Source: Escherichia coli (lineage in GTDB: Bacteria; Pseudomonadota; Gammaproteobacteria; Enterobacterales; Enterobacteriaceae). Taken from it: DNA of 64,000 nucleotides. The number at the start of each line of letters is the position of its first letter. Within the stretch, counting starts at the first letter, position 1. Shown here one piece after another: positions 1,348-16,276 of this stretch. The notes beneath the pieces were generated by a model, which saw only the letters and a program-made list of their open reading frames with translations, was not told the DNA's origin and did no database searches. The stretch lies in assembly GCF_965641715.1 (NCBI RefSeq), contig NZ_OZ282453.1, one strand, 5' to 3'. The translations under genes were made by a program, and so were the position numbers.

Positions 1348-2085
1348 TCAGTTTGCAGATGCAGTGGGTCTGATGGTAATTTCGGTTGTATCAACGCTTT
1401 CGGGAGATTCAATAATATGCCTTACCGCACGGGCAATATCCGCAGGTTGAAGTGCAACAGAACGGTAGGCGTCCATTGCCTTCATGGTTTCCACATGGGT
1501 AATGGTTGAAGCCAGTTCACTTTCGACAACGCCAGGATTTACGCAGGTCACACGGATTTTCGAGCTTTCCTGCCGTAAGCCATCAGAAATAGCCCGTACT
1601 GCAAATTTGGATGCACAATAGACTGCGCCTGTGGGCACAACAGAAAGGGCACCAATAGAACCAAGATTGATTATCTGACCGGAACCCTGTGCTTCCATCA
1701 CCGGAAGTACAGCGCCAATTCCCCACAGTACACCTTTGATATTCACGTCAATAGTGAGCTCCCATTCATCCTGTTTTCCTGCTGCAAGCGGTGAAAGCGG
1801 CATAACGCCCGCATTATTGATAAGAACATCAACTCGCCCCCAGCTATCCAGCGCTACTTGCACGAAATCTGCCATGGACTGTCGGTCTGTGACATCCAAC
1901 TCCCGAGCTTTAGCAATTCCTCCTGCGCGGCAAATTTCGGTTGCAATGGCTTCGATACGCTCAACTCTGCGTGCTCCCAGTAAAGTCTTTGCACCTGTCG
2001 TTCCCAGCTCTCTGGCAATACCTTCCCCAATACCACTTGATGCGCCGGTGATTAATATGACCTTATCCATTACGTTCTCCTTCAA
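1348..2085 (-). CDS. short-chain dehydrogenase/reductase (SDR) family oxidoreductase; likely start at MDKVILITG (2070)
   Basis: TGASSGIG Rossmann motif, NNAG, catalytic Y-x3-K (YCASK). Confidence 0.85.
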   Translation of the reverse strand: MKENVMDKVILITGASSGIGEGIARELGTTGAKTLLGARRVERIEAIATEICRAGGIAKARELDVTDRQSMADFVQVALDSWGRVDVLINNAGVMPLSPLAAGKQDEWELTIDVNIKGVLWGIGAVLPVMEAQGSGQIINLGSIGALSVVPTGAVYCASKFAVRAISDGLRQESSKIRVTCVNPGVVESELASTITHVETMKAMDAYRSVALQPADIARAVRHIIESPESVDTTEITIRPTASAN

Positions 2086-2168
2086 ATGTGTTCGGAGAGA
2101 GAATAGAACTTTATGATTGGTTCCAGTATCCTGCTTTCAATGTACTCAGTGGTTAGCGGCATTAAACA

Positions 2169-3068
2169 ATGAAAATCGATCTTAATCTTTTACCCATTTT
2201 TATCGCGGTAGCAGAAGAAAGTAATTTTAGTAAAGCCGCCGCACGACTGGGCGTTACCCGTTCAGCGGTCAGTCAGGGAATAAGACGCCTTGAAGATGCA
2301 TTCGGGACAATGCTTGTAATGCGGACCACGCGCTCAGTTAATTTGACGGAAGCGGGAGAACGGCTGCATAAATCGTTGTCATTACCTTTATCCGGTATTG
2401 AGACAGCGTTCGAAGAGATGGTTTCTGATCATGTACCACGTGGACTTCTCAGAATCGCAGTGACGTCAATAGCTGAAGAATTTCTTTCAGGTCCGCTAAT
2501 CGCTTCGTTTGCAGCAGCCAATCCAGCCGTTACGCTTGATATTGTTGTCACGGATGAGGAATTCGATATCGTGGCCGCAGGTTACGATGCTGGCGTAAGG
2601 CTCGGAGAGGTCATTGAAAAAGACATGATTGCTGTGCCCCTTACCGGCAGTCAGCGTGAAATGGTCGTTGCCTCTCCCTCCTATCTCGCAGCCAACAGCA
2701 CACCTGTTCATCCGCGTGAACTTGTGAATCATAAGTGTATCGGCTGGCGTCAGTCCCCGGAGGTTGCGCCTTATCGCTGGCCATTTGAAGAAAACGGGAG
2801 AGCTTTCGACCTTGCGATTGAACCGCAGATTACGACTAATGATCTGCGTCTGATGTTGAGGCTGGCTCTTGCCGGCGGAGGAATAACAATTGCCACTCAG
2901 GAAACTTTCAGGCCGTATATTGAAAGCGGTAAGCTTGTATCTCTGCTTGATGACTTTCTTCCACAATTTCCGGGCTTCTATCTGTATTTCCCACAGCGTC
3001 GCAATATTGCACCAAAGCTCCGCGCCCTGATTGACCACGTCAAGGAATGGCGGCAGCAATTGGCTTAA
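2169..3068 (+). CDS. LysR-type transcriptional regulator
   Basis: N-terminal HTH (FSKAAARLGVTRSAVSQGIRRLE) and LysR substrate-binding domain; divergent from the SDR gene. Confidence 0.85.
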   Translation: MKIDLNLLPIFIAVAEESNFSKAAARLGVTRSAVSQGIRRLEDAFGTMLVMRTTRSVNLTEAGERLHKSLSLPLSGIETAFEEMVSDHVPRGLLRIAVTSIAEEFLSGPLIASFAAANPAVTLDIVVTDEEFDIVAAGYDAGVRLGEVIEKDMIAVPLTGSQREMVVASPSYLAANSTPVHPRELVNHKCIGWRQSPEVAPYRWPFEENGRAFDLAIEPQITTNDLRLMLRLALAGGGITIATQETFRPYIESGKLVSLLDDFLPQFPGFYLYFPQRRNIAPKLRALIDHVKEWRQQLA

Positions 3069-3193
3069 ATGTCTGCACCTGCATTGCCTGATGTCAGAAC
3101 AGTATTTTGATTAATTGCCAGGGTTACAATGGCATAAATACGGCACAGGAGGAAACGTGGTGTATTTAAATATGGGGTAACTACTTGATTTAA

Positions 3194-3211
3194 ATGGTGC
3201 CGATAATAGGA
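3194..3211. repeat. attR of P4-like satellite: 18-bp direct repeat (atggtgccgataatagga) of the thrW 3' end
   Basis: identical 18-mer at 14821..14838 inside the tRNA-Thr 3' end. Confidence 0.6.
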
Positions 3212-3391
3212 ATAAAATAAAACAATAACATACTGAAAAATATACAAAAAAGAAACACACCGTTAAGTAATGCCCCCGAAAATGCCCCCATAATAGATGC
3301 CGCAGTAAGTCGACTTGTCCCAAGGACTGGTAAGTAATGTCAATAGCGGGAACAAAGAGACATTACTTACCGAGAATGGAATCCATTTAGG

Positions 3392-4621
3392 TTATGCTGG
3401 CCAATCCCACTGCTGATAGGCAGAGAATAGGCGCGTGAGCTCAGCAGGCGCAAGAATATCAACAATATTAGCTCTGTAGCTATGCGATTTACCTAATGGA
3501 ACATTTTCGAAATGATTAGCTTGATAAGGATTAAAATCGTGAAGCTCACCTAATGTTGAGATATCGGTATTAATAGTTTTAAGCCAAGAAACAAGAATTA
3601 CTTTTGCCCCTGTTCTCTGTATGTAAGCTCTTGCCGATTCAAAACTATAGCCTCGAGTTGTTATATCATCTATAAGAAGTACTGTTTTACCAGGGCCTAA
3701 AGGTGGTTTTTTATAGGTAGTTCTAGGATTTCTGTGTGGCTGAGAATTAAGACAAATTGTATTAAGTTGATTGCAATGGTCAATTGCAACTCCCTCATTT
3801 CTTGCTTTTTGAGATTTTTTGGAAGTCGTATGCCTTAAAATAAGATCTGGGATATACGTCTTGCGAAAACATTTTCCAAATATTGAAATCGCTTCATCCA
3901 TGATATTATTCCCATATCCTTGCTTATGCCCTGGATAAACACTAACATAATTAATCATCTTATGAATGCCACTAAAATAGAGACTGGATATTAAGGCACT
4001 CGTCCAAAATTCAGGATGGCCTAATCCATGTTTAGCAGCAGCACGAGCATCTTCAGAGTAAAGAGTATACTCTTCCTTCATGGTGCTGAAAGGAGCAAGT
4101 GCATAGAAATTAAAATCACCATCGTGAATTTCATGACACCAAAGATGCTCTCTTAAACAGAAGGTATCTATAAATCTAGCAATATCTTTAGGGGTTGAAA
4201 ACTCGAAACCATAATCTGTTTTGTCTGCCCACCATGTAGCTCTTAAAAAGAGCAACTCACCATTAACTGCTGTTTGCATGTCGTTTATCGAAGCACCAAT
4301 GTACAAAGTTTCTGTACTTTCCCAACCCATCAAATCAAGGACATATTTTGTAGCATCCGCAGTTGGCTTCCCTGGAATGCTCTTATCTTTCGCTCGACAA
4401 AGATATTTAAATTCTCCCCAATGCTTTTGTAACACATCCTCTAAAGGGGTTCTTTCATCTCCGACAACCCAACCCCTGTTAGTGAATACAACAAACTCGA
4501 TCTTTTTAGTTCTGAAATATCTAATTAATTTATCTACCTCTGCAAAGATTTCGCTATCGATCTTTCCCTTAGGCACAAGAATATCTTCAACACTAAGAAT
4601 CACACCCTTAATTTTGCTCAT
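3392..4621 (-). CDS. satellite cargo: protein with N-terminal Rossmann-like (possibly degenerate HAD-like) domain and C-terminal type I phosphoribosyltransferase domain; ShosT-like candidate
   Basis: PRTase signature VLLIDDITTRG near C-terminus; N-terminal YIGASINDMQTAVNG resembles HAD motif IV; AT-rich; 10-nt gap to upstream gene. Confidence 0.55.
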   Translation of the reverse strand: MSKIKGVILSVEDILVPKGKIDSEIFAEVDKLIRYFRTKKIEFVVFTNRGWVVGDERTPLEDVLQKHWGEFKYLCRAKDKSIPGKPTADATKYVLDLMGWESTETLYIGASINDMQTAVNGELLFLRATWWADKTDYGFEFSTPKDIARFIDTFCLREHLWCHEIHDGDFNFYALAPFSTMKEEYTLYSEDARAAAKHGLGHPEFWTSALISSLYFSGIHKMINYVSVYPGHKQGYGNNIMDEAISIFGKCFRKTYIPDLILRHTTSKKSQKARNEGVAIDHCNQLNTICLNSQPHRNPRTTYKKPPLGPGKTVLLIDDITTRGYSFESARAYIQRTGAKVILVSWLKTINTDISTLGELHDFNPYQANHFENVPLGKSHSYRANIVDILAPAELTRLFSAYQQWDWPA

Positions 4622-4631
4622 TTCATCTTCC

Positions 4632-5696
4632 TTAGAGATCTAAGCTCTGCTGTATCGGCTGTGCTTTTAAATCATGATTATTATTCAAAATATAATTACT
4701 CATCTCATTCAATTCAAAAGGCATTAAAAAAGATAAAGAATTTCTATTTTCTTCAGCAAACTTCAATTCTGGTCTACTTTCATACGTAGTAGGAAGATAT
4801 GGACTCGCTATCTTTTTTGCATACTTAAAAGCATAATCAACAGTATGTGATGTTCCACTTTTAATATTCCATTCGACTGGTATTAGTGAATCACATAAAG
4901 CAGCCTGGATTCTGTTACGCCTTACAAAATTTTCTGCGCTATATGTTTGTTCAGGTAGATACTCGGTAACGATAGCCCCACCATTAGAAACTATTGCTCG
5001 ATATAACTCTTTAGAACCTTTCGGATACTCGACAAAAATCCCATTACCCAATACCGCAATAGTTGGAATGCCATATCTCAGCGATTCATAATGACAACAT
5101 TGATCTATTCCTGTCGCCAAACCACTGACTGTTGAAACATCTTTAGAATATAGAGAAGAAACAATCAGTTTTACTAGAAAAATACCATCATCCGTTGGCT
5201 TTCGTGTCCCCACAATTGCAACAGATTTCTTATTAAGAAGTTCATAATTACCATGAACAAAAATCCAAAATGGCGGATCGCTTATGTTCTTTAATGATTG
5301 AGGAAATGTAGCCTGATCATAAAAGGTGAGCACAATACCATTTTTATTGAGTTCACGAGCTCTCTCCAGTCCCTTAGACCAAAGGTCTTGTTGAAATGTT
5401 TCCCAAGATATATTTTTAGGCAAGGAAACTCTTAGATATCCTGCCAAGGCATCAGCTGTATTATCTTTTAATATATTCTTAAATCCAATTTTGGATTGAT
5501 AGATTTTGCGAAGCGTCCAGTAACCAACCCCCTTTAGACAAGTTAAGGCAAGAAACGCAATAATTTCATTTTTCCAAAACTCTCTAACTTCAGTGTAATC
5601 TTTATATTCCATTTTACGTTTGCCTTTTAGATTACAACCCGTACTCAACACAAAAAATTTAGAAAATTGTTGCCAAAAGCATATTATAAATAGCAT
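4632..5696 (-). CDS. satellite cargo: DprA/Smf-like (SLOG-type Rossmann) protein; ShosA-like candidate; probable start at MEYKDY (5612)
   Basis: DprA core motifs VAIVGTRKPT, GLATGID, TIAVLGNGI, YPKGSKELYRAI, FVRRNRIQAAL; AT-rich. Confidence 0.55.
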   Translation of the reverse strand: MLFIICFWQQFSKFFVLSTGCNLKGKRKMEYKDYTEVREFWKNEIIAFLALTCLKGVGYWTLRKIYQSKIGFKNILKDNTADALAGYLRVSLPKNISWETFQQDLWSKGLERARELNKNGIVLTFYDQATFPQSLKNISDPPFWIFVHGNYELLNKKSVAIVGTRKPTDDGIFLVKLIVSSLYSKDVSTVSGLATGIDQCCHYESLRYGIPTIAVLGNGIFVEYPKGSKELYRAIVSNGGAIVTEYLPEQTYSAENFVRRNRIQAALCDSLIPVEWNIKSGTSHTVDYAFKYAKKIASPYLPTTYESRPELKFAEENRNSLSFLMPFELNEMSNYILNNNHDLKAQPIQQSLDL

Positions 5697-5980
5697 CTTA
5701 CCGCAGATTTGTGAAGCAACAACATCCCTAGGAGAAACCTTAACCTAGCGGGACAACTTACTGACCAATCCTCAGCTAGCTCATTGAATTGCCCCCATAT
5801 CGCACAGCCCCGCACGCCTGCCCGCTTCGCTTAACAGACTGGTTTTCATGCACCTCATAAATCGTCTCAGAAGCCACCAAACAAGGGCTTTCTCGTCAAA
5901 AATGGTGCATAAGACTCATGCGTTTTCATGCGCCATAGACATGCACTCATGCGCTCTCAGGCCAGCCAGGGAAAAGGTGT

Positions 5981-6005
5981 TAAAAATCCCGGTACTCGAC
6001 CGGGA
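5981..6005 (-). terminator. Rho-independent terminator downstream of delta/ogr-like gene
   Basis: stem tcccggtactcgaccggga followed by U-run on the minus-strand transcript. Confidence 0.5.
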
Positions 6006-6027
6006 TTACGTAGGCGTTTTTTTCTAA

Positions 6028-6309
6028 TCAGACAGGAATCTGCTGACGGCTTGACAGTTTTGACGCGGAGCCATAGCGATTGAGCGTTTGCTGTTGTTTT
6101 ACCGGGGTTTGTGATTTGTCTGGTTCCTGTTCATTGCGCCGGGGTTTCATGATTATCTTATCCACACTCTCCAGTGCCGTAAATGTGCAGGAACATTCCA
6201 GATTCTGGCACTGATACCACGAGCGTTTAACTGACGGAGCTTCATAGGCTGCTGTTCTGGCGTGTGCAACTGTACCGCATTCCGGACATTTAAGTGCCAT
6301 TAATATCAC
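6028..6309 (-). CDS. Ogr/Delta-family zinc-finger late transcription activator
   Basis: CPECG...HARTA...YQCQNLECSCTF matches the Ogr/Delta C4 zinc-finger pattern. Confidence 0.8.
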   Translation of the reverse strand: MILMALKCPECGTVAHARTAAYEAPSVKRSWYQCQNLECSCTFTALESVDKIIMKPRRNEQEPDKSQTPVKQQQTLNRYGSASKLSSRQQIPV

Positions 6310-6857
6310 TCCTGTATATCGTTAATGTCATTCAGGCGTTGCTGAAAACGCAGATGTTGTGCCGGGGTGTAAGAGCCCTGGCAATCACGAATCATACTGG
6401 GGTCAGGCATCAAACCGGATTCATCCAGGATCTCACGATAATCCCCGGCAATTTCAGGCGGTGTTATTGCCAGCTGGCGAACCAGAGCACTGCGTAATAT
6501 ACGGGACGCAACGTCAACCCCTCCGCGCCCCTTCAGGAACGGAGCCAGTGCAGATGTCAGGGCTGCCCCATTCGCCTGCATAAAATTGCTGAGAGCGGCT
6601 TCTGTGCAGGCCTCCATCAGTAAATGCTGCGAGTAAATGCATTCGCGCGCAGCACAGTTAATTTGCCATTTCAGCACATCCAGACGTTCCCGCAGGAATT
6701 CGAGCTGTCGGGCATAATCTGCTGGTTTTTCTGTGGCAGCGAGGAGAGATGTTATCTGTTGTTCAACGGCTTTTCGGCTCTCACTATGTCTGGCCCACAG
6801 AATACGGGCATTCCGAAAACTGGTAAGTACCTGGTCAGGTGTGCCTCGGGCCGTCAT
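6306..6857 (-). CDS. psu: Psu-like (polarity suppression / capsid decoration) protein
   Basis: 183 aa, recalled similarity to P4 Psu (KWQ.N.AA, FMQ.NGAAL.SALAP, FTPAQ); translationally coupled to sid and delta. Confidence 0.55.
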   Translation of the reverse strand: MTARGTPDQVLTSFRNARILWARHSESRKAVEQQITSLLAATEKPADYARQLEFLRERLDVLKWQINCAARECIYSQHLLMEACTEAALSNFMQANGAALTSALAPFLKGRGGVDVASRILRSALVRQLAITPPEIAGDYREILDESGLMPDPSMIRDCQGSYTPAQHLRFQQRLNDINDIQE

Positions 6858-7597
6858 ACTGCTTTCTCCTTCTCAGCAAGTTCCTGACGAACCTTTATTT
6901 TATGCATAGCTGCTGGAGAGAGTTGATTACTGAAATCCAGACGCGCCGCATAATCCGGGGCAACTCCCGCCAGTTTAAACACCGGGTCCTGTTCAGGCAT
7001 CGCATCGTTAGCCAGAGCCGGTCTGGTGATATGTTTATGAATAAAGTCTTTCAGCACTGTGTCCGGGTCATTAACTGAATTCACCACACCCACAACGGCA
7101 CTGGCTTCCCGGCCCATTGTGGATTTAAGCAGGCTCAGCGTCTGAATAAGCGCTTTTCCATGCGACTGCATAAAATCCTCCCAGATTTGTTTTGCGCGAA
7201 TATCCACAAGAATGTTATGCGCGTGGATATACTTTCCGGCTAATTCCGCAGCTTTCTGCGGCAAAAGTGCATTTTCGCTTTCCTGAGCCGCCAGCAGCTC
7301 ATCAAAATCCTCAAGCGTTTCTCGTCCCAGCGCAATTTCCGTGCGCAGTTTTTTCATTTCCTTTGAGACCACGCCCTGACTTTCACGAAACAGCGTGCGC
7401 CACTCCTCATTCAGTGTATTCGTCGTGGATTCCATTTCAGCGCGACGCTGGCGGATTGTCGCAATATTATCCGCTGCCGCTTTCTGCTGACGACGTGCTT
7501 CAAGCCATGCGTTTCTGGCTGTGTTCATGGTTTCCAGTGCCCGCTGCGTTACAGCCGGAAAAGTGGAAAGGTTGTTATTCACTGCGGTGTTGTTCAT
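6854..7597 (-). CDS. sid: Sid-like capsid size-determination (external scaffold) protein
   Basis: 247 aa helical protein first in the late operon upstream of psu/delta, size and position as P4 Sid. Confidence 0.5.
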   Translation of the reverse strand: MNNTAVNNNLSTFPAVTQRALETMNTARNAWLEARRQQKAAADNIATIRQRRAEMESTTNTLNEEWRTLFRESQGVVSKEMKKLRTEIALGRETLEDFDELLAAQESENALLPQKAAELAGKYIHAHNILVDIRAKQIWEDFMQSHGKALIQTLSLLKSTMGREASAVVGVVNSVNDPDTVLKDFIHKHITRPALANDAMPEQDPVFKLAGVAPDYAARLDFSNQLSPAAMHKIKVRQELAEKEKAV

Positions 7598-7631
7598 GAC
7601 TTCTCCTGTCGGGTTGGTTCGTTACGTCAAT

Positions 7632-7687
7632 TGTGTCGTGGCTGACACAAGCACACTATCGGTGCTCAGTGTGTGGTGGCTGGCACA
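7632..7687 (-). promoter_or_regulatory. Two TGT-N12-ACA dyads (Ogr/Delta-type activator sites) upstream of sid
   Basis: TGT(7632-7634)-N12-ACA(7647-7649) and TGT(7670-7672)-N12-ACA(7685-7687), 35-90 bp upstream of sid start. Confidence 0.45.
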
Positions 7688-7775
7688 ACGGGCGCTTGCG
7701 GTTATTCAGACGTGGCTATGAAAGCCAGCCAGATAAAAATGCCCACTGTTTCAGTCTGCTTTATGTCCCTGATGC

Positions 7776-7964
7776 GGTGGAACAGGTGAAACATGTGTTA
7801 CAGCTTTGTTTTATAAATCATTTATATACACTGCACCGGTGGAACATCGCGGGTAACAAGGTGGAACAGCGGATTGGCTGGCGTTACATCTGTTCCACCT
7901 CACTATTTCAGAAGGTGGAACAGGTTCAGCCCCTGTAAAATACGGTTGTTCCACCTGTTTCACC
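7776..7964. repeat. Iteron cluster: 6 perfect GGTGGAACA/TGTTCCACC 9-mers plus 2 variants in both orientations (crr/ori-like)
   Basis: copies at 7776, 7838, 7860, 7891(inv), 7914, 7947(inv); variants at 7785 and 7956; directly downstream of primase gene. Confidence 0.55.
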
Positions 7965-7998
7965 TGTTACCCTTAATAAATAAGACTCACGCAAAGCC

Positions 7999-10671
7999 TT
8001 AACCCGGCACCTCGCTGTTGAAGACATAGAGCCTGCGGGGATTCATCTCTGGCGGGCGAATGGTTGTCTGGAGTTTGCCATCAGTGGAGGGCAGCAGGTA
8101 TCCACGATCTGCGCACAGACGCGCCACCTTGCGCGGGTCAAATCCCCTGCAGATTTCTTTCCAGCCGGACGGCATGACATAAAACGTAGTGACAGCTTCC
8201 GTGCCCTGCGCGGTACTGCCTTTCTCCACCCTGCGCCAGCCCACCATATTGGCGGGGCGGTTGCGCTCGTCATACCAGTCTGCAAAGCGGCTGTACTGAT
8301 TCGCGGTAAAGAAACTGCGAACCTGCTCCAGTGCGGCGATATCTTCCTGATTGGCGGTGTGCCCGCGCTCTTTCAGCCATGCGTTCAGGCAGACGCGGGT
8401 TGCCCGCAATGCTTCACCCTCAGGCCAGCCGGTGATACCCTGACGGGTTGCCAGTTCACCTGCCATCGCCACCAGTGCAAAGCGGTTCACAGCCCGGCCC
8501 ACCTGATTGCCTGCATCTTTCGGAGTCAGGGCGGCAGCATATTCCTTCATCAGCGATTTTGCCTGTGCCGTTAGTCCGTTAAGATCAGCGGTCAGTGCTT
8601 TCAGCCACTCCCGGAACGGCGAACCGTAGTAGCAGGACGTGGCCCATTCAAGATGCTCTGCCAGAGCCTTGCCGCTGTCGAAGCCGTGCAGCTCCTCAAA
8701 AACGCCAAACTTCCCGGAATCGCTGGGGATCTGGATCATCCTGACTTCCATCCCGGCAAAAGTACGCTCACCGGCCTTTGCCGCATGTTCGGTCAGAGAT
8801 AACTCGCCAGTTGAAAAGAACAACAGGCGCCACTGCTTACGGGTACGCAGTTCACCGTCCGTACCGGCACGACCCTTGCCCTGACCGTTTGCCAGCATGT
8901 AGGCGATATTGCCTGCCTCGCGTCCGTCAACTTCCCGGATCTCATCAAGCATCATGGCGGCATCGTTGCGGCGGCTGGCACATCCCTCCAGCGCGTTGCC
9001 GGTGGCCCGCCATGTCTGCCAGTAGTCAGGCCCGCCGCAGACGGAGGTTGCCGCTTTCATGGTGGTGGTCTTACCGTCTGTCGATTCCCCTTTGAGGTGG
9101 TAGCCGCCGCCGTCCATACCAACCAGCCGTAACAGTGGTGCAGCAAAGGCCAGGCTGACAGCAAATGCCACGCGGGAGTTGCCGGTACAGTAGCGGGATA
9201 CGTTCTCCCGCCATTCCTCTGTTGTGCCCGACACGCGGAAATCACGCCCCTGCACGGAAGTGGTCTGGAGAATGACACCCTCTGCACCTTCACCGCTGAC
9301 CTCATCCTGCAGGACGTAAACCTGACCATGCCAGCCAGTACGGCTGACGCAGGTCACGCGACGTTCCGGTTTACACAGTGAGATATATTCCATCAGGCGT
9401 GCGCGTGCCTCACCGGTGGTGCTGATATAAGACAGCCCGTTAACAAGCAGTACCCGGCGCAGTTCCTCACCACTGCCGCTCAGCATTTCCATCGGCATCG
9501 CCCAGCGGCGACGCTCACCCCACGTATCTTCCCATTCCAGCAGTCGTCCGAAGTTACCGCCATCGGCATCGCAGGTGATTGCCGTCACGCGCAGCGGGCT
9601 GCATATTTTGACGTTCTGGATCTCCGTCTCACCGTTGCGCTGTACCTGCTTTTCATACCAGAGATATTCCTGGGTAAGACGGAACCCGTGCGGCAGTTGC
9701 GTGCGGCCTTCCCCGCACAGTACCAGACCGTTGCGAAAGGCTTCACGGGCACGGGTAATACCGTGCTCCCGATGAAAGTCATTCCAGTCAGCCTTAATCT
9801 CTCCTGGTGGCAGCGTCATCCAGCCGCCAACAGCTTTTGCCGCCCGTTCAGCAAAGGCTCTGCCGGGATTCTCCCCCCCGTCCTGAAAATCGTTATCACC
9901 GGCGATGATAATTTTTACCTCAGGCCAGCGTGCCCGCAGCGACTGCGCCACATTGGGCAGGTTGCCCGCAGATATGGCAGCCACTACGCATCCGGCAGTG
10001 AGCTGGCTTACCGTCAGCGCCGTAGCGTAACCTTCGGTAATCACCACCTGTACCGGTGGTTCAGACGGTAACGGGCTGAGCGACACAAACGCGCCTTTCA
10101 TCGTGCTGCCGGGCAGTATGCTTTTTTCACCCGTCGGGGCGATAAGCTGTGCACCGGTCACGGCTCCGGTGTTGGTCGTGAGTGGTAACAGCAGGGAACC
10201 AGCAGGAAAATCCTTACCGCTGATATGCTGCACGCTTCCGGTCAGAGAGGCCGGGTATCCGGCGAACCCTTTTCCTGCCAGATAGGCACTTTCTCCCGTG
10301 TGGCTCTCTTTCATCAGCGTCGCCACGGTAAGGCTCATGTCGCGTTTAGGGGCTTTTTGTCTGGCAGGCTTAACAGGCAGTTCCTGCACATCCGGCACAT
10401 TAAGCACCTGCGCCACCTGCTGCGCAGCCTTTCTGACGTTGTAGCCGGTTACGAGCTTAACCAGATCCAGACCGTCACCATTGCCACACTGGCTGCAGAT
10501 CCACGTCCCGCGCCCGTCAAGGTCATCGAGGCGAAAACGATCCTTGCCCCCACATTTCGGGCAGGGACCGTGCCTGCCGTTTTCAGGTACATCAATACGC
10601 AGCATATGCAGAATAACGGGCCATTTCCCCCGCGCGGCGGCTGAAATCTGCGTAACCGTCTGTATTGTCAT
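7999..10671 (-). CDS. P4 alpha-like primase/helicase (zinc finger + toprim + D5-type NTPase)
   Basis: N-terminal CPKCGG...CSQCG, Walker A GESTDGKTT, 890 aa. Confidence 0.8.
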   Translation of the reverse strand: MTIQTVTQISAAARGKWPVILHMLRIDVPENGRHGPCPKCGGKDRFRLDDLDGRGTWICSQCGNGDGLDLVKLVTGYNVRKAAQQVAQVLNVPDVQELPVKPARQKAPKRDMSLTVATLMKESHTGESAYLAGKGFAGYPASLTGSVQHISGKDFPAGSLLLPLTTNTGAVTGAQLIAPTGEKSILPGSTMKGAFVSLSPLPSEPPVQVVITEGYATALTVSQLTAGCVVAAISAGNLPNVAQSLRARWPEVKIIIAGDNDFQDGGENPGRAFAERAAKAVGGWMTLPPGEIKADWNDFHREHGITRAREAFRNGLVLCGEGRTQLPHGFRLTQEYLWYEKQVQRNGETEIQNVKICSPLRVTAITCDADGGNFGRLLEWEDTWGERRRWAMPMEMLSGSGEELRRVLLVNGLSYISTTGEARARLMEYISLCKPERRVTCVSRTGWHGQVYVLQDEVSGEGAEGVILQTTSVQGRDFRVSGTTEEWRENVSRYCTGNSRVAFAVSLAFAAPLLRLVGMDGGGYHLKGESTDGKTTTMKAATSVCGGPDYWQTWRATGNALEGCASRRNDAAMMLDEIREVDGREAGNIAYMLANGQGKGRAGTDGELRTRKQWRLLFFSTGELSLTEHAAKAGERTFAGMEVRMIQIPSDSGKFGVFEELHGFDSGKALAEHLEWATSCYYGSPFREWLKALTADLNGLTAQAKSLMKEYAAALTPKDAGNQVGRAVNRFALVAMAGELATRQGITGWPEGEALRATRVCLNAWLKERGHTANQEDIAALEQVRSFFTANQYSRFADWYDERNRPANMVGWRRVEKGSTAQGTEAVTTFYVMPSGWKEICRGFDPRKVARLCADRGYLLPSTDGKLQTTIRPPEMNPRRLYVFNSEVPG

Positions 10672-11051
10672 ACTTCCCCCTGATACAACGTCACACCAGT
10701 ACTGCAGAAGTCATCAAAGGTCGCCGGAAGCGTGCGGTACATCTCCGCCATTACTTCACAGCCGCGCGCGGTCAGTACCGGCGGCGCGGTCAGCAGTGAC
10801 GGCTCCAGCATGTCAGTCAGCAGTGCCAGCGCGGCAGCGGCGCCCTGTGCTTCGCCGTACTCGTTAATCAGTGCGCACTCGATATGCAGCGCAATGGCCA
10901 TTTCAATACGCTCCACCGTCAGGCTGTGCGGACCATACTGATCACTGCCAGTTTCGTTCAGCATTTTCTGCCGCCATGCTGAAGCAATAGCCCGCCGGTA
11001 AAGCGCGGTTGTCATTTCTGCCGGGAAAATGGAAACCTGCGGCTGGTTCAT
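10668..11051 (-). CDS. hypothetical satellite protein
   Basis: ORF translationally coupled (4-nt overlap) to primase gene. Confidence 0.4.
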   Translation of the reverse strand: MNQPQVSIFPAEMTTALYRRAIASAWRQKMLNETGSDQYGPHSLTVERIEMAIALHIECALINEYGEAQGAAAALALLTDMLEPSLLTAPPVLTARGCEVMAEMYRTLPATFDDFCSTGVTLYQGEV

Positions 11052-11332
11052 CTGGCACCTCCTTCAATCAGTGCACAGCTGTGCGCAATATCCGTCAAAT
11101 CTGCCCGCAGGTACTCCATCAGCGCGGCGACACCATGCGCACAGCCAGCGTCCAGTGCTCCGGCCTGAGACGGGTATTCAGAAAAGAGAAGCTGGAGCAT
11201 GTCGCAGGCATTTCTTGCGCGGGTCAGCTTTCCGAAACTGTCCTCTGACAACCCATAGGCAAAAGCACCGGTATTGTGTTTTTCAGGCAAAGTGTGGCCC
11301 TGAGCACCGTTGTGCCCGTTTGAAATATTCAT
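11048..11332 (-). CDS. hypothetical satellite protein
   Basis: ORF coupled by 4-nt overlap to downstream gene. Confidence 0.35.
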   Translation of the reverse strand: MNISNGHNGAQGHTLPEKHNTGAFAYGLSEDSFGKLTRARNACDMLQLLFSEYPSQAGALDAGCAHGVAALMEYLRADLTDIAHSCALIEGGAR

Positions 11333-11363
11333 CGTGGATTACTCCGTTTTCAGCGGTATTTTG

Positions 11364-11724
11364 TCAGAGAAACTTTGAATAGTGACCGTCGTCAGGCTCA
11401 GCAGAACGCCGTATGCTACGCTCCCGCCAGCGGATAAATAGCACAGACGGATGCAGTGTCAGCGGGCCGGAACCACTACCGCCTGCAGGAGCTGGTGCAG
11501 GCTTAAAGAGCGGTACATCAAACAGGCGCGTATACCGCTGTTCAAACCATGCCAGAGGGCAGGAAGAAAGCTGGTTGTCGCTGTCATGACGTATCAGCAC
11601 TTCACAGCTGAATTCAGGATTAACCAGCGCCACAGAGGGCGAGGCTTCAATTAATCGGATAATCGTGACCGTCCAGCCACGTTCATGCTGCCAGCGTTCG
11701 CCGGGGTGCGGATAATTACGCATG
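11364..11724 (-). CDS. hypothetical satellite protein (start MRNYPHPG at 11724)
   Basis: start ATG overlaps stop of upstream small ORF (ATGCGTAA). Confidence 0.35.
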
Positions 11725-11892
11725 TTCACCTCCGCAGGGAATGCGCCCGGCAAAGCTCAGTACATAATCCGGGGCAAGTCTTCGCCGCGCTGACCGCTCG
11801 TTATCTGCGGTGATCCTTAACATCACAGGACGGGCATTGCGTTGACTGCGGTTGATCGCCGCAAATAACCAGGTACACTTCTGTTTAGCCAT
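11716..11892 (-). CDS. small protein, possibly host cell division inhibitor Icd-like (58 aa)
   Basis: hand-translated MAKQKCTWLFAAINRSQRNARPVMLRITADNERSARRRLAPDYVLSFAGRIPCGGEHA; below the 60-aa cutoff of the ORF track. Confidence 0.35.
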   Translation of the reverse strand: MAKQKCTWLFAAINRSQRNARPVMLRITADNERSARRRLAPDYVLSFAGRIPCGGEHA

Positions 11893-11983
11893 CTTCGTTA
11901 CCTCTTATAACGGTTGGTTAAATGCCCGATTTGTGTTCCCGCACAATCGGGCATTGCTTTTACAAGCGAACTATACTTACAAT

Positions 11984-12027
11984 GGTAATTACCATGTAGT
12001 CATCATATTCCAGGGTAATTACCATGT
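11984..12027. promoter_or_regulatory. Tandem operator-like repeats GGTAATTACCATGT (each containing palindrome GGTAATTACC), 30 bp apart
   Basis: copies at 11984-11997 and 12014-12027; second overlaps the ATG of the small + strand ORF. Confidence 0.45.
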
Positions 12028-12197
12028 CAACACCACAAGAGAAACGTTCCCCACCATTCCAAATGCGTCTTACCGACGATTTTAGGTTGCAACTCGAAAA
12101 AGAAATGCGCAAAGATGGAGATAGCGCGTTGGCAACTTGGATTAAAAGAATTTTACGTAAAGAACTACAATCACGCGGGATTGACCCTAAAGGTTAA
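12024..12197 (+). CDS. small ribbon-helix-helix-like DNA-binding protein (57 aa)
   Basis: hand-translated MSTPQEKRSPPFQMRLTDDFRLQLEKEMRKDGDSALATWIKRILRKELQSRGIDPKG; strand-helix-helix pattern; only + strand gene in the satellite. Confidence 0.4.
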   Translation: MSTPQEKRSPPFQMRLTDDFRLQLEKEMRKDGDSALATWIKRILRKELQSRGIDPKG

Positions 12198-12229
12198 TCA
12201 GTTAAATATTACTAACTATCAATTAAGGC

Positions 12230-12520
12230 TTAGGGAGTAGGTGATAATCTATTCCCTTTATTAATTGCTCTTGCCTTATTTCTCATCCCCTCAAACTGTT
12301 GACCTGAGTTTTCTTCAAACCCATCTCGCCACTTATAATAATCAGCAGCGCGCCATCGGGACATCCGACCTATTTTTATAGGTTTTGGAAAGCGATTCAG
12401 AGAAATCAATCGATAAATCCATTTGTCACTTAATAAACAATCGGAAGTAATAAACTTCATATCGATCAGAGAATCCATTGAAGGTCGTTGCAAAGTAGTA
12501 TTATCATGTTTAGATAACAT
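12230..12520 (-). CDS. alpA: AlpA-family phage transcriptional regulator
   Basis: KFITSDCLLSDKWIYRLISLNRFPKPIKIGRMSRWRAADYYKWRDGF matches AlpA-type HTH proteins. Confidence 0.7.
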   Translation of the reverse strand: MLSKHDNTTLQRPSMDSLIDMKFITSDCLLSDKWIYRLISLNRFPKPIKIGRMSRWRAADYYKWRDGFEENSGQQFEGMRNKARAINKGNRLSPTP

Positions 12521-12645
12521 TCATCATTCTCCGTTTATCTAAGTCTATTGGCTTCAACACGGAAAATTAAAACATAGGTTATAAATGAGAAAAATGTGAC
12601 TAATGAAAAAAATCCAAAATCATTAGTCACAATAATTGTTAACAT

Positions 12646-13470
12646 TTAGTTAAACTTAATGTTTTTCATGCAACTACGTAGCAAGCTAACAACAGTATCA
12701 TAGCTCAAAGGTGGTTCTCCGGTCTTAGGCCAGAACTCACTGGCATGTTGAAAAAGATAATCAGCTATCGCTGCTGGACTCTCTCTTCTTAGCCTCATAT
12801 CACGATGATAGAGCGAAATAATAGCCATGAGTATTTCAGTTCGAGGAACAGCATGTTTTTGTTTTTGCGCCTCAGATTGTGATTTATATTTATTGGCGTT
12901 TTTTATCCGTTTTTGTTCGCATAAGACTATATCAATGAATTTTTGAATCTGTACCTTTGTAATCCACAAAACCTCAAAAAGATAATAATTTTCTTTTTCA
13001 TCATAATTTACATAAAGAATTACCTTACAATTTATATTAGGCGTACCCGCCAGTAGAAAATGAATAGGCCAGGAATCCGGTTGCCCCTCATGCTTAACTA
13101 ACAGATCTTTATATTCATAATCAACAGCCCATAAACCGGATATAAAGCATCGAATAAAACCATTTTTATCAATTAAATTATTTTCATCAGGGATTCTTAT
13201 AGAGCTTAAGTCTGACAACATAATATTGCCATTTCTATCTCGTGGTAAATATTTCAGATTAGATAAGAACTCATCCAGTTGACCATCAATCTTCAAACCA
13301 CATGAAACATCATACTCATCATCATGGAATTCCATGCATAGCTCTACATCTCGTTCTCTGGCAAACCAGAGTATATCCTTTTCACTACAACCAATTTTTT
13401 CTGAAGCTTCATCCAACTGGTAGTAATCTCTGAGCAGAGAATCAGTATTATTAATTTTTAAAATATTCAT
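12646..13470 (-). CDS. hypothetical AT-rich protein of unknown function, translationally coupled to integrase
   Basis: 274 aa; ATGA start/stop overlap with int; low GC relative to flanks; no motif recognised. Confidence 0.4.
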   Translation of the reverse strand: MNILKINNTDSLLRDYYQLDEASEKIGCSEKDILWFARERDVELCMEFHDDEYDVSCGLKIDGQLDEFLSNLKYLPRDRNGNIMLSDLSSIRIPDENNLIDKNGFIRCFISGLWAVDYEYKDLLVKHEGQPDSWPIHFLLAGTPNINCKVILYVNYDEKENYYLFEVLWITKVQIQKFIDIVLCEQKRIKNANKYKSQSEAQKQKHAVPRTEILMAIISLYHRDMRLRRESPAAIADYLFQHASEFWPKTGEPPLSYDTVVSLLRSCMKNIKFN

Positions 13471-14726
13471 TTATGAGTACCAATTAGCTCAGATAAATAA
13501 TTAGCATACCATTGCATCATTTCTCTTCTCCCTTCGAGATATTGGGCATGGTTATAAATTCCACGAATAGAGTTTTTGTCCGAATGAGCAAGCTGGGTTT
13601 CAATCCAAGCGCTGTTAAATCCTTTCTCATGTAGAATTGTACTCATCGTATGCCTGAAACCATGTCCCGTAACACGCCCTGCATATCCAATACGTTTAAA
13701 CACCTGATTGATGCTTGCTTCACTCATAAATTTGCTAGGATCGTTGCGTCCAGGGAACATCAGCGGGTAGTTCCCAGTTAGTTCTTTCAAACTTTTGAGA
13801 TGGGATAATGCTTGTTTTGGTAACGGGACAATATGGCTCCTACGCATTTTCATACGTTCTTTTGGGATCTCCCACACCGCATTATCAAAATCCACCTCTC
13901 GCCACTCACCTGCTCGTAGTTCTCCAGTTCGTAGACCTGTCAGGATAAGTAAATGCGCCCCCAACAATACAATTGGACTTCCTGAATAAGAATTAAGGGC
14001 ATTAAAGAACTCCGGTAGTTCGTTGGCTTTGAGGAATGGATAGTGGACTGCTTCATGTCCTTGCATCGCACTGGCAAGATCCGGTGCCGGATTGTAGATT
14101 GCCCTACCCGTTACGATGGCATAGCGAAAAACTTCACCGCATCGCTGACGGACTTTCTTCGCTTTCTCCATAGCGCCTCGAGCTTCTATCAACCTCAGAA
14201 CTTCAAGCAGTTCAAGGGGCTGAATATCAGCTATAGGTCTGTGCCCAATATGCGGAAAAATGTCTTTCTCAAATGCCTCAATGATGTCGGAAGCATAGCC
14301 CTCAGACCATTTGGATGATTTCATTTTGTGCCACTCTAACGCCACTTCTCTGAATGGGTTAAGTGTCTCAATCGCTGCGTTTAAAGCCTGCTTTTTGGCT
14401 TTTTTGACTTCGCCGGGATCTTCACCTGCTGCGAGTAGTTTCTTTGCGTCTTCTCGTTTTTGTCTGGCATCAGCAAGTGTGACTGTTGGATAAACACCAA
14501 AGGACAATCGTTTCTCTTTACCAGCAAAACGGTATTTCATACGCCAGTAACGCGAGCCATTAGGTTCGACCTGAAGGTATAGGCCACCTCCATCAAACAG
14601 CTTATAGCTCTTCTCTTTTCCTTTCGCAGCTTCAACCTTGCGGGCATTCAGCATCATTGGGGGCACATTTCCTAGACCGAACAGAACATGCCCCTGATTG
14701 TGCCCCCAACCGCGTGTTGATTTCAA
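13467..14726 (-). CDS. int: P4-type tyrosine integrase (probable start at MLNARKV, 14654)
   Basis: KEKSYKLFDGGGLYLQVEPNGSRYWRMKYRFAGKEK N-terminus and C-terminal HGFRHT...Y catalytic region; adjacent to tRNA-Thr. Confidence 0.9.
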   Translation of the reverse strand: MKSTRGWGHNQGHVLFGLGNVPPMMLNARKVEAAKGKEKSYKLFDGGGLYLQVEPNGSRYWRMKYRFAGKEKRLSFGVYPTVTLADARQKREDAKKLLAAGEDPGEVKKAKKQALNAAIETLNPFREVALEWHKMKSSKWSEGYASDIIEAFEKDIFPHIGHRPIADIQPLELLEVLRLIEARGAMEKAKKVRQRCGEVFRYAIVTGRAIYNPAPDLASAMQGHEAVHYPFLKANELPEFFNALNSYSGSPIVLLGAHLLILTGLRTGELRAGEWREVDFDNAVWEIPKERMKMRRSHIVPLPKQALSHLKSLKELTGNYPLMFPGRNDPSKFMSEASINQVFKRIGYAGRVTGHGFRHTMSTILHEKGFNSAWIETQLAHSDKNSIRGIYNHAQYLEGRREMMQWYANYLSELIGTHK

Positions 14727-14820
14727 GAGACAAGGGTTGACCTCAAACGTATGAAAACAACGTAATATATATGTTTTTAAATGATTTTGTTGATGTGGGT
14801 TGACTTGGGAAAACTAGGTG

Positions 14821-14838
14821 ATGGTGCCGATAATAGGA
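14821..14838. repeat. attL core: 18 bp at thrW 3' end, repeated at 3194..3211
   Basis: exact 18-mer match. Confidence 0.6.
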
Positions 14839-14897
14839 GTCGAACCTACGACCTTCGCATTACGAATGCGCTGCTCTACCAACTGAGCTATATCGGC
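14822..14897 (-). tRNA. thrW: tRNA-Thr (anticodon CGU)
   Basis: reverse complement reads GCCGATATAGCTCAGTTGGTAGAGCAGCGCATTCGTAATGCGAAGGTCGTAGGTTCGACTCCTATTATCGGCACCA. Confidence 0.9.
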
Positions 14898-15011
14898 CCT
14901 GAAAGGACATGTTCACGAACGTGAATCACGGTGGACAAGGGTAAAACTAACCGGGCGATGCGTCAATGGCCTTGTGAATCAAATGGCTACTTTTGCATCA
15001 CCCGGTTTTAT

Positions 15012-16265: not shown

Positions 16266-16276
16266 CGGCCAGCTCC

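What the first reader, a model, noticed from the sequence alone, without database searches (positions are those of the whole stretch)
3194..14838. Complete-looking ~11.6 kb P4-type satellite at thrW, replacing the larger prophage that K-12 carries at this tRNA
Exact 18-bp direct repeats (3194-3211 and 14821-14838) bracket int, alpA, alpha-like primase/helicase, iterons, sid, psu and delta, all on the minus strand. Length and gene content match a P4-like satellite. No P2/P4-type cos 19-mer was seen, so packaging competence is uncertain.
Basis: partly seen in the sequence, partly recalled or inferred. Interest (0 to 1): 0.55.

Follow-up and report, generated by a model that had tools for sequence, protein, structure and literature searches.

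The report
P4-like phage satellite at thrW
This is an intact-looking 11.6-kb P4-family phage satellite inserted in the thrW tRNA gene and carrying a known anti-phage toxin-antitoxin system (ShosTA); it is a common, already well-described kind of element in E. coli, so it is real but ordinary.

Summary
An exact 18-bp repeat (3194-3211 and 14821-14838) brackets the element. The right copy is the 3' end of tRNA-Thr(CGT). The reconstructed empty site is contiguous in 948 of 5,426 complete E. coli genomes, so the repeats are the true junctions.

Inside are int, an AlpA-type regulator, a primase-helicase, eight iterons, sid, psu and delta.

Three corrections:
- A cos site exists at about 5800-5960. 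It is homologous to P4 and P2-family cos regions, but its cohesive-end segment is divergent, so the canonical 19-mer search finds nothing.
- The replicase matches P4 alpha only in its N-terminal primase third. The rest is a DUF927 helicase.
- The left 2.6 kb, between attL and cos, is a ShosTA defence cassette in the known cos-adjacent P4 hotspot.

The element has no detectable epsilon and no P4-type CI/C4 RNA. A small divergent ORF and palindromic operators overlie the early promoter instead.

The same architecture occurs in about 335 E. coli genomes, and the whole element in 8. The excised circle would be 11,627 bp, against 11,624 bp for P4.

Verdict: a new member of a thoroughly catalogued family. 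Interest is low.

The parts
3194..3211 (.). attL: left copy of the 18-bp direct repeat (att core)
   Evidence: Exact repeat, 0 expected by chance. Left flank plus one copy plus thrW is contiguous in 948 genomes.
3270..3288 (+). Candidate integrase arm-type sites: tandem ATGCCCC, 12 nt apart
   Evidence: 5 of the window's 15 RTGCCCC hits lie within 160 bp of the att junctions. The motif is also present inside attL of MS1665 despite its different cargo. P4 has tandem 12-bp arm repeats. This is an inference.
3392..4621 (-). shosT: phosphoribosyltransferase toxin of the ShosTA defence system (cargo)
   Evidence: PADLOC ShosT E 3e-94. PDB 8zvb 'ShosT' E 2e-88. GC content 33-40%.
4632..5696 (-). shosA: DprA-like antitoxin (cargo). 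PGAP start gives 4632-5612.
   Evidence: PADLOC ShosA E 3e-90. PDB 9vzo 'DprA-like antitoxin protein ShosA' E 1.6e-71.
5800..5960 (-). cos region. The putative cohesive-end segment GGCGTGCGGGGCTGTGCGA (minus strand) is 5800-5818. The GCATG repeats and TGCATGAAAACC box lie upstream, toward delta.
   Evidence: Local alignment to P4 cos scores 46, against 22.5 +/- 2.8 for shuffles. It aligns with the cos-proximal regions of the P2-family phages RE-2010 and MLG42. It is conserved in 855 E. coli genomes. The cleavage positions are inferred, not shown.
6028..6309 (-). delta: Ogr/Delta zinc-finger late-gene activator, a single unit
   Evidence: PHROG 603, the same family as P4 delta. 45% identical to P4 delta over the zinc finger. 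PGAP 'ogr/Delta-like zinc finger'.
6306..6857 (-). psu: polarity suppression and capsid decoration protein
   Evidence: PHROG 6366 E 2e-69, the same family as P4 Psu. 29% identical to P4 Psu.
6854..7597 (-). sid: capsid size determination protein
   Evidence: PHROG 6165 E 7e-93, the same family as P4 Sid. 24% identical to P4 Sid. The Sakai ortholog is annotated 'phage capsid size determining protein'.
7632..7687 (-). Psid-type late promoter region with two TGT-N12-ACA dyads (7632-7649 and 7670-7687)
   Evidence: The two dyads are 38 nt apart, and the proximal centre is 43.5 nt before the sid ATG. P4 has two dyads 37 nt apart, 44.5 nt before its sid ATG. About 0.09 dyads are expected by chance in 400 bp.
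7776..7964 (.). Iteron cluster, the probable origin of replication
   Evidence: 8 copies of TGTTYCACC in 190 bp, in both orientations, against 0.88 expected per 64 kb. P4's ori type-1 repeat is CTGTTCACC.
7999..10671 (-). Replicase: Zn-ribbon primase, Toprim and DUF927 helicase (890 aa)
   Evidence: Pfam Zn_Ribbon_Prim, Toprim_3 and DUF927. Residues 6-316 are 38% identical to P4 alpha, and the remainder shows no similarity. PHROG 1139, against 2249 for P4 alpha.
10668..11051 (-). DUF5375 protein, homolog of P4 orf106 (which I recall is cnr)
   Evidence: 40% identical to P4 orf106. PHROG 5991 for both.
11048..11332 (-). 94-aa ORF of unknown function
   Evidence: PHROG 14861, unknown function. 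No Pfam match.
11364..11723 (-). 119-aa ORF of unknown function, in the position P4 uses for epsilon
   Evidence: PHROG 30862, unknown function. No significant Pfam match. No BLAST hit to P4 epsilon.
11716..11892 (-). Icd-like small protein
   Evidence: NCBIfam phage_ICD_like, 84 bits against a cut-off of 25. 54% identical to the C-terminal part of the ORF annotated 'cI' in P4.
11921..11958 (-). Stable hairpin in the leader upstream of icd
   Evidence: Fold z-score -3.85 for 11885-12000. The same weak Rfam artefact appears at the same place in relative L010. Function unknown.
11982..12030 (-). Early promoter (TTGACA-17-TATGAT) overlapped by two ATGGTAATTACCAT palindromes, the putative operators
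   Evidence: Best promoter match in the element, 11 of 12 positions. Repeats D12 and I9.
12024..12197 (+). 57-aa divergent ORF, a candidate ribbon-helix-helix repressor
   Evidence: Annotated as a CDS in RefSeq relatives. The AF2 model has a disordered N-terminus plus two helices. There is no Pfam, PDB or Foldseek support. Relative L010 has a YlcI/YnfO-family ORF in the same position. This is an inference.
12230..12520 (-). AlpA-family regulator or excisionase
   Evidence: PGAP 'AlpA family phage regulatory protein'. PHROG 66 and 2790 'excisionase and transcriptional regulator'. Weak match to P4 orf88.
12646..13470 (-). 274-aa protein of unknown function. It overlaps the int stop codon by 4 nt and lies in a low-GC block.
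13467..14657 (-). int: tyrosine integrase of the P4 type
   Evidence: 43% identical to P4 Int over 410 aa. NCBIfam PRK09692 and PHROG 1. The PGAP start gives 396 aa.
14660..14706 (.). Candidate integrase arm-type sites (RTGCCCC at 14660 on the minus strand, and at 14688 and 14700 on the plus strand)
   Evidence: The tandem pair is 12 nt apart, as at attL. This is an inference.
14821..14838 (.). attR: right copy of the 18-bp repeat, the 3' end of thrW
14822..14897 (-). thrW, tRNA-Thr(CGT), left intact by the insertion
   Evidence: ARAGORN. Rfam tRNA 71.8 bits.

Best explanation
This is an integrated P4-like phage satellite. Its excised circle would be 11,627 bp.

Integration: a P4-type tyrosine integrase inserted it into the 3' end of thrW. 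This duplicated 18 bp and left the tRNA intact.

Early genes: they run in one direction from a strong promoter at about 12030. That promoter is overlapped by two palindromes, which are probably bound by the small divergent 57-aa protein (inferred). The early operon encodes an Icd-like protein, two unknown small proteins, a DUF5375 (P4 orf106-like) protein and a primase/DUF927-helicase. The replicase presumably starts replication at the iteron cluster just downstream (inferred).

Helper exploitation: when a P2-family helper expresses late genes, Ogr or the satellite's own Delta should activate the sid-psu-delta operon through the two TGT-N12-ACA dyads. Sid would then shrink the helper capsid and Psu would decorate it. 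The helper terminase would cut and package the satellite at its cos site. These steps are inferred from homology with P4.

Cargo: between cos and attL the element carries ShosTA. This is a characterised toxin-antitoxin abortive-infection system that protects the host, and so the satellite, from other phages.
For: - Junctions: the 18-bp repeat is exact, overlaps the tRNA 3' end, and the empty site is contiguous in 948 of 5,426 genomes.
- Hijacking genes: Sid, Psu and Delta fall in the same PHROG families as P4's proteins.
- Int, the primase domain and orf106 are homologous to P4's.
- Iterons are P4's motif plus one base.
- Two dyads have the same geometry as in P4 Psid.
- The cos region is homologous to P4 and P2-family cos regions.
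- Size is 11,627 bp against 11,624 bp for P4.
- Cargo occupies exactly attL to cos and is swapped in relatives that have the same core. This matches the published cos-adjacent hotspot (PMC9122126).
- ShosT and ShosA match PADLOC models and solved structures. The mechanism is described in PMC11961720.
- The same element, 99.9% identical, sits in two different flank haplotypes, which suggests recent mobility.
- Sakai Sp2, annotated 'P4-like phage', shares the cos-delta-psu-sid module at about 91-92%.
Against: - No excision, replication or packaging was observed. Everything functional is inferred from homology.
- The cohesive-end segment differs from every helper examined. It has GGCGTGCGGGG, one base shorter than GGCGTGGCGGGG, and its right half diverges even from sister satellites.
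- No epsilon homolog was found, and no P4-type CI/C4 RNA, so helper derepression and immunity cannot work as in P4.
- No matching helper was identified. An exact 22-mer scan of viral contigs found nothing. No P2-like prophage is annotated in the 49 kb to the right of the element in a near-identical genome, which matches the window only as far as about 38.8 kb.
- The repressor role of the 57-aa ORF has no family or fold support.
Confidence: 0.85

Rival explanations
1. It is a P4-like satellite by descent but is now immobile, a domesticated defence island. It stays at thrW because ShosTA is useful, and it can no longer be induced or packaged.
For: - The cohesive-end segment is atypical and its right half is unlike that of sister satellites.
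- It has no epsilon and no CI RNA.
- Only 8-9 genomes carry this exact version.
- A clearly degraded derivative exists in SW070917, where ShosTA plus delta-psu-sid is fused to lambdoid prophage fragments.
- A 2026 preprint reports defence genes persisting in defective P4 elements.
Against: - Every ORF is full length compared with relatives, and both att copies are exact.
- The one-base-shorter cos core is a trait of the whole lineage, shared by MS1665 and Sakai Sp2, not a private lesion.
- The size is within 3 bp of P4.
- The same element lies in two flank haplotypes.
- The architecture without epsilon or CI RNA recurs in about 335 genomes and at another tRNA, which argues that it is a working design.
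Confidence: 0.2
2. It is not a P4-family satellite. It is instead a PICI-type or other integrative island (int, AlpA, primase) that merely acquired a sid-psu-delta-cos module by recombination and depends on a different helper type.
For: - The int - alpA - divergent small regulator - primase layout on one strand resembles Gram-negative PICIs. By its authors' own account, SatelliteFinder classifies a typical P4-like satellite as a Type C PICI.
- The replicase has a DUF927 helicase, not the C-terminal part of P4 alpha.
- The modules are clearly exchangeable.
Against: - Int, the primase domain, the DUF5375/orf106 protein and the Icd-like ORF are all homologous to P4's own, and the iterons are P4's motif plus one base. 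So the replication and regulation block is also of P4 ancestry.
- The cos is of the P2/P4 type.
- No PICI packaging or capsid genes were found. PHROG and NCBIfam gave none.
Confidence: 0.05

Closest known systems
Satellite phage P4 (NC_001609)
   Same: - A tyrosine integrase targeting a tRNA 3' end, 43% identical.
- Sid, Psu and Delta in the same PHROG families.
- The N-terminal primase domain (38% identical), the DUF5375/orf106 protein and the Icd-like ORF.
- An iteron motif and two Delta/Ogr dyads upstream of sid.
- A cos region with the same conserved boxes, and a cos-adjacent cargo slot.
- Genome size of 11,627 against 11,624 bp.
   Different: - No DNA similarity at blastn level.
- All core genes are on one strand, ordered int-alpA...primase-sid-psu-delta-cos-cargo. 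P4's order is int-cargo-cos-psu-delta-sid and, divergently, vis...alpha.
- Delta has one zinc-finger unit, not two.
- The replicase carries a DUF927 helicase and an unrelated C-terminus.
- No epsilon, orf151, gop, beta or cII.
- No C4/CI RNA, isrK or c4-a1b1 elements, although Rfam finds all three in P4 itself.
- Inserted at thrW. The relative L010 shows the tRNA-Leu site that I recall is P4's (leuX, from memory).
- The cohesive-end sequence differs.
Prophage Sp2 of E. coli O157:H7 Sakai (annotated 'P4-like phage'), next to the same yagP flank
   Same: - It shares the cos-delta-psu-sid module at about 91-92% DNA identity, in the same sid-psu-delta order.
- It has the same chromosomal flank, an intact yagP.
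   Different: - Sp2 keeps the canonical P4 layout, with a 777-aa alpha-type primase.
- It has a different int end and cargo, a pseudogenised AAA ATPase.
- It is 12.9 kb long and sits in tandem with Sp1.
P4-like satellites with a cos-adjacent defence hotspot (Rousset et al. 2022, PMC9122126; Moura de Sousa & Rocha 2021/2023, PMC8628076 and PMC10085698)
   Same: - The variable cargo lies exactly between cos and att/int.
- Relatives with 98.6% identical cores carry other systems, for example an S8 peptidase with an AAA ATPase.
- A DprA + PRTase system of this type was validated against T7 and lambda.
   Different: - The validated DprA + PRTase system came from a P2-like phage hotspot, not from a P4-like one.
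- The core-gene order differs from the 'psu-delta-sid, alpA, epsilon, alpha' order described as typical.
- Epsilon was not detected, so the element would score as Type B.
ShosTA toxin-antitoxin defence system (Pu et al. 2025, PMC11961720; NAR 2026, PMC12961424)
   Same: A two-gene operon with a DprA-like ShosA upstream of the PRTase ShosT. Both give strong matches to PADLOC models and to the crystallised proteins.
   Different: It is a sequence-divergent ortholog (about 300 and 244 bits). Its activity and trigger were not tested here.

Membership tests
P4-like satellite family (seven-component definition of Moura de Sousa & Rocha) | Integrase | tested here: met
   43% identical to P4 Int over 410 aa. 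NCBIfam and PHROG integrase matches.
P4-like satellite family (seven-component definition of Moura de Sousa & Rocha) | Psu | tested here: met
   PHROG 6366 E 2e-69, the same family as P4 Psu.
P4-like satellite family (seven-component definition of Moura de Sousa & Rocha) | Delta | tested here: met
   PHROG 603, the same family as P4 delta. 45% identical over the zinc finger.
P4-like satellite family (seven-component definition of Moura de Sousa & Rocha) | Sid | tested here: met
   PHROG 6165 E 7e-93, the same family as P4 Sid.
P4-like satellite family (seven-component definition of Moura de Sousa & Rocha) | AlpA-type regulator | tested here: met
   PGAP names the identical protein 'AlpA family phage regulatory protein'. 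PHROG 66 and 2790. The similarity to P4 orf88 is weak.
P4-like satellite family (seven-component definition of Moura de Sousa & Rocha) | Alpha (primase/replicase) | tested here: inconclusive
   The N-terminal primase domain is homologous (38% over 320 aa). The helicase and C-terminus are DUF927-type with no similarity to alpha. Whether the authors' alpha profile would score it was not tested.
P4-like satellite family (seven-component definition of Moura de Sousa & Rocha) | Epsilon (Ash, helper derepression) | tested here: not met
   No BLASTP hit to P4 epsilon. No Pfam domain in the 119-aa or 94-aa ORFs. Their PHROG families differ from epsilon's PHROG 10016. The family definition tolerates one missing component (Type B).
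P4-like satellite family (functional hallmarks) | P2-family cos site next to the cargo hotspot | tested here: met
   Alignment score 46 against 22.5 +/- 2.8 for shuffles. Shared boxes with P2-family phage cos-proximal regions. The cargo boundary lies at cos. Cleavage itself cannot be tested here.
P4-like satellite family (functional hallmarks) | Helper-dependent packaging into small capsids | not testable with these tools
   This needs helper infection, electron microscopy and transduction assays.
P4 sensu stricto regulatory design | RNA-based immunity (CI RNA of Rfam family C4, with isrK and c4-a1b1 elements) | tested here: not met
   Rfam finds C4 (74.9 bits), isrK and c4-a1b1 in P4. It finds none in the window element or in relative L010 at E <= 1.
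ShosTA defence system | ShosT phosphoribosyltransferase toxin | tested here: met
   PADLOC ShosT E 3e-94, full length. PDB ShosT E 2e-88.
ShosTA defence system | Adjacent DprA-like ShosA antitoxin in the same operon | tested here: met
   PADLOC ShosA E 3e-90. PDB ShosA E 1.6e-71. An 11-bp gap separates the genes, which are on the same strand.
ShosTA defence system | Toxicity, neutralisation and phage resistance | not testable with these tools
   Experimental.
PICI (phage-inducible chromosomal island) | PICI-specific packaging or capsid-redirection genes, and a non-P2 helper | tested here: not met
   No such families appeared in the PHROG or NCBIfam scans of the main ORFs. The hijacking module is Sid/Psu/Delta with a P2-type cos.

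The most novel reading that the evidence does not exclude
This element represents a distinct sub-lineage of P4-like satellites. It is present in about 6% of complete E. coli genomes, at thrW, tRNA-Leu and probably other sites. The sub-lineage has replaced P4's regulatory logic. A small protein repressor with palindromic operators stands in for the CI RNA. There is no epsilon, so helper sensing or derepression would be done by the uncharacterised 119-aa, 94-aa or 274-aa proteins, or not at all. The replicase is a DUF927 helicase that nevertheless uses near-P4 iterons.
Probability: 0.35. Interest if true: 0.4.

Novelty: new member of a known kind. Interest (0 to 1): 0.2.

Why it matters
It matters little beyond good annotation. 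P4-like satellites occur in roughly a quarter to a third of E. coli and enterobacterial genomes. Their cos-adjacent defence hotspot and rapid cargo swapping are published, and ShosTA is characterised both structurally and mechanistically.

The element is a clean textbook example, because att, arm-type sites, cos, ori, late promoter and cargo boundaries can all be read at base resolution.

Its modest value is as a representative of a common sub-architecture that lacks P4's epsilon and CI RNA and has a DUF927 helicase. That could be used to ask how such satellites sense and exploit their helpers.

Tried and rejected
- The canonical P2/P4 cos 19-mer, searched with up to 3 mismatches, gave 0 hits. 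The 19-mer itself is correct, since P4 starts with it. cos was found only by aligning the spacer.
- Megablast and blastn of the element against 50,697 phage records found no P4 similarity at DNA level.
- An exact 22-mer of the putative cohesive end, scanned against viral contigs, gave 0 hits. No helper with the same end was identified.
- The Rfam search for the C4/CI RNA found nothing. The only non-tRNA hit is a sub-threshold 'symR' match, which reflects a leader hairpin.
- Three GTAAGTAATG copies inside attL were considered as arm sites and rejected. They are absent from MS1665, which has the same int, so they are cargo-specific.
- 57-aa ORF: Pfam, PDB sequence search and Foldseek were all uninformative.
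- The TGT-N12-ACA count across the window is at chance level (16 found, 14.4 expected). Only the position and pairing upstream of sid carry information.
- RTGCCCC is likewise not enriched across the window. Only its clustering at the att junctions is informative.

Full report
**Observation**

The 18-mer ATGGTGCCGATAATAGGA occurs exactly twice in the 64-kb window, at 3194-3211 and 14821-14838. No occurrence is expected by chance. The right copy overlaps the 3' end of tRNA-Thr(CGT) at 14822-14897 on the minus strand. The flanks are a LysR-family gene (yagP) on the left and proA-proB-phoE on the right.

I built the predicted empty site from the left flank, one repeat copy and the rest of thrW. 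K-12 carries the 34.3-kb cryptic prophage CP4-6 at the same tRNA and the same yagP flank. Since most genomes lack a contiguous site, thrW is a busy integration hotspot.

**Gene content**

Reading from attR leftward on the minus strand, the element contains:
- a tyrosine integrase, 43% identical to P4 Int;
- a 274-aa unknown protein;
- an AlpA-family regulator;
- a divergent 57-aa ORF, the only plus-strand gene;
- an Icd-like ORF;
- 119-aa and 94-aa unknown ORFs;
- a DUF5375 protein, 40% identical to P4 orf106;
- an 890-aa replicase;
- Sid, Psu and Delta;
- a 330-bp spacer;
- ShosA and ShosT;
- attL.

This rests. Sid, Psu and Delta fall in PHROGs 6165, 6366 and 603, the families that P4's own Sid, Psu and Delta fall in. 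At DNA level nothing resembles P4, so this is a distant relative of P4.

**cos**

The canonical 19-mer GGCGAGGCGGGGAAAGCAC, which is how the P4 record begins, is absent even with three mismatches allowed.

The delta-to-shosA spacer, read on the minus strand, nevertheless aligns with the left side of P4 cos. The score is 46, against 22.5 +/- 2.8 for shuffles with a maximum of 34. A blastn search with this spacer returned weak hits, and the top-listed ones are P2-family phages (Fels-2, RE-2010, SopEPhi, a Yersinia phage and Klebsiella P2-likes). In the two phages I inspected, the match lies between gpA/dinI and the portal and terminase genes, which is the cos-proximal region.

The multiple alignment shows shared GCATG repeats, TGCATGAAAACC and AAGCGGGCA. 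The window then has GGCGTGCGGGGCTGTGCGA where RE-2010 has GGCGTGGCGGGGATACGAG and P4 has GGCGAGGCGGGGAAAGCAC. I place the putative cohesive-end segment at 5800-5818.

Sister satellites MS1665 and Sakai Sp2 share the one-base-shorter core GGCGTG(C/G)GGGG, so this is a lineage trait and not a private lesion. The window diverges from them in the right half. The cos-delta segment occurs in 855 of 5,426 genomes.

**Cargo**

ShosT and ShosA match PADLOC models (E 3e-94 and 3e-90) and the crystallised ShosT and ShosA (E 2e-88 and 1.6e-71). The block has low GC content, 33-40%.

Relative MS1665 matches the window at 2730-3211 and again from 5802 onward at 98.6%. In between, it has an S8 peptidase and an AAA ATPase. 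The swappable cargo is therefore exactly the stretch from attL to cos. This is the published cos-adjacent P4 hotspot, and a DprA + PRTase pair of this type was shown to protect against T7 and lambda (PMC9122126). The mechanism of ShosTA is described in PMC11961720.

This exact cassette is rare, found in 9 of 5,426 genomes. One of the nine is a degraded remnant fused to lambdoid prophage fragments.

**Replication**

The replicase has Zn_Ribbon_Prim, Toprim_3 and DUF927 domains. Only residues 6-316 are homologous to P4 alpha, at 38% identity. The helicase and C-terminus show no similarity, and the PHROG families differ, 1139 against 2249.

Between the replicase gene and sid there are eight copies of TGTTYCACC in 190 bp, against 0.88 expected in the whole window. 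P4's ori type-1 repeat is CTGTTCACC, which is the same motif minus one base. It is unexplained why near-identical iterons go with an apparently unrelated C-terminal domain.

**Late control**

Two TGT-N12-ACA dyads, at 7632-7649 and 7670-7687, lie upstream of sid. They are 38 nt apart, and the proximal centre is 43.5 nt before the ATG. P4 has two dyads 37 nt apart and 44.5 nt before its sid ATG.

From memory of the P4 literature (Julien and Calendar), Delta/Ogr binds such dyads centred at -55 and -18 of Psid. The window-wide count of the pattern is at chance level, so only the pairing and the position carry information.

**Early control and immunity**

The best promoter match in the element (11 of 12 positions) fires leftward from 12030 to 12002. 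It is overlapped by two ATGGTAATTACCAT palindromes.

The divergent 57-aa ORF starts inside this region. Its AF2 model is a disordered N-terminus followed by two helices. That is compatible with a ribbon-helix-helix protein but is not proven.

Rfam detects C4 (74.9 bits), isrK and c4-a1b1 in P4 itself. It detects none of them in the window element or in a sister element at tRNA-Leu. No epsilon homolog was found by BLASTP, Pfam or PHROG. Immunity and helper derepression therefore cannot work as they do in P4.

**Integration details**

RTGCCCC occurs as tandem pairs 12 nt apart, about 60-90 bp inside attL and 115-160 bp inside attR, with one further inverted copy. These are 5 of the window's 15 copies. 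The attL pair is also present in MS1665 despite its different cargo. P4's annotated attP arm repeats are also tandem 12-mers on both sides of the core. I take these to be candidate arm-type sites, which is an inference.

**Population context**

- The whole element is found at 99.7-99.9% identity in 8 genomes.
- The primase-to-274-aa block is in 60 genomes, and the primase-to-icd block in 335.
- A sister element with the same layout but another integrase sits at tRNA-Leu.
- The window has the Sakai-type intact yagP flank, while strain LR-64-2, whose element is 99.9% identical, has the truncated yagP/paoD flank. This suggests recent mobility or flank recombination.
- Sakai Sp2, annotated 'P4-like phage', shares cos-delta-psu-sid at about 91-92% identity but has the canonical P4 layout and a 777-aa primase.
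- The excised circle would be 11,627 bp, against 11,624 bp for P4. MS1665's would be 12,826 bp.

**The 274-aa protein**

**Verdict**

The finding is real and correctly interpreted. It is an intact-looking P4-family satellite at thrW, with a cos site after all and a ShosTA defence cargo. Against the family definition (int, psu, delta, sid, alpA, epsilon, alpha) it meets five components clearly. Alpha is met only in part, and epsilon was not detected, so it would count as Type B. This kind of element, its hotspot and its cargo are all well described, so novelty is low. The only modestly interesting aspect is the recurrent sub-architecture without epsilon or CI RNA and with a DUF927 helicase.

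Noticed in passing
window 7776-7964 and 7999-8874: The iterons (TGTTYCACC) are P4's type-1 ori repeat plus one base. Yet the replicase region that corresponds to P4 alpha's helicase and C-terminal part shows no detectable similarity to alpha. From memory, alpha's C-terminal domain is the part that binds the iterons.
   Followed up: partly
L008 (E. coli SW070917, NZ_CM129862.1) 11001-21600: At thrW this strain has the identical ShosTA cassette with delta-psu-sid, fused directly to lambdoid prophage genes (ymfL, Cro/CI, a LexA-family repressor and another integrase). This is a recombinant or degraded derivative that keeps the defence cargo.
   Followed up: partly
L010 (E. coli 126096, NZ_CP158338.1) 3500-13150: A sister satellite has the same one-strand layout and a 98% identical primase-to-icd block. 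It carries a different integrase, sits at tRNA-Leu, has an AAA-ATPase cargo, and has a YlcI/YnfO-family small ORF where the window has the 57-aa ORF. The modules swap at the icd leader, about window 11920-11950.
   Followed up: partly
window 12646-13470: A 274-aa protein family restricted to Enterobacterales has no annotation anywhere. The gene overlaps the int stop codon by 4 nt and lies in a 33%-GC block. It could be a second accessory slot or a recombination or regulatory factor.
   Followed up: partly
window 1-3193 compared with L001 and L007: The window has an intact 299-aa yagP (LysR-family) flank like O157 Sakai (98.1% identity). K-12, B and LR-64-2 have yagP truncated and abutting paoD. 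Both haplotypes occur with empty and with occupied thrW sites.
   Followed up: partly
thrW locus across 5,426 E. coli genomes: Only 948 genomes have the flank and thrW contiguous. The remaining roughly 80% therefore probably carry some insertion, or have a rearranged flank, at this tRNA.
   Followed up: no
window 11885-12000 (minus strand): A stable hairpin at 11921-11958 in the icd leader is conserved in the sister element. It causes a sub-threshold Rfam 'symR' hit on the opposite strand. The sequence GCAATGCCCG recurs at 11831-11846 inside icd, which loosely recalls antisense target repeats. No known RNA family matches.
   Followed up: partly
window 46540-46557 and 52421-52438: The identical 18-mer TGTGACAGCCCCGCCACA occurs twice, 5.9 kb apart. 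It was seen by accident in the dyad scan and probably belongs to a longer repeat.
   Followed up: no
window about 36300-64000: From about 36.3 kb the window stops being collinear with strain LR-64-2, the top-listed annotated genome carrying the same element. That genome has IS elements, an RHS fragment and type VI secretion remnants at this position.
   Followed up: no
NCTC11121 and NCTC9966 copies of the element (hits H4 and H5): Two culture-collection strains carry the same element interrupted by an IS3-family insertion in the cargo region.
   Followed up: no
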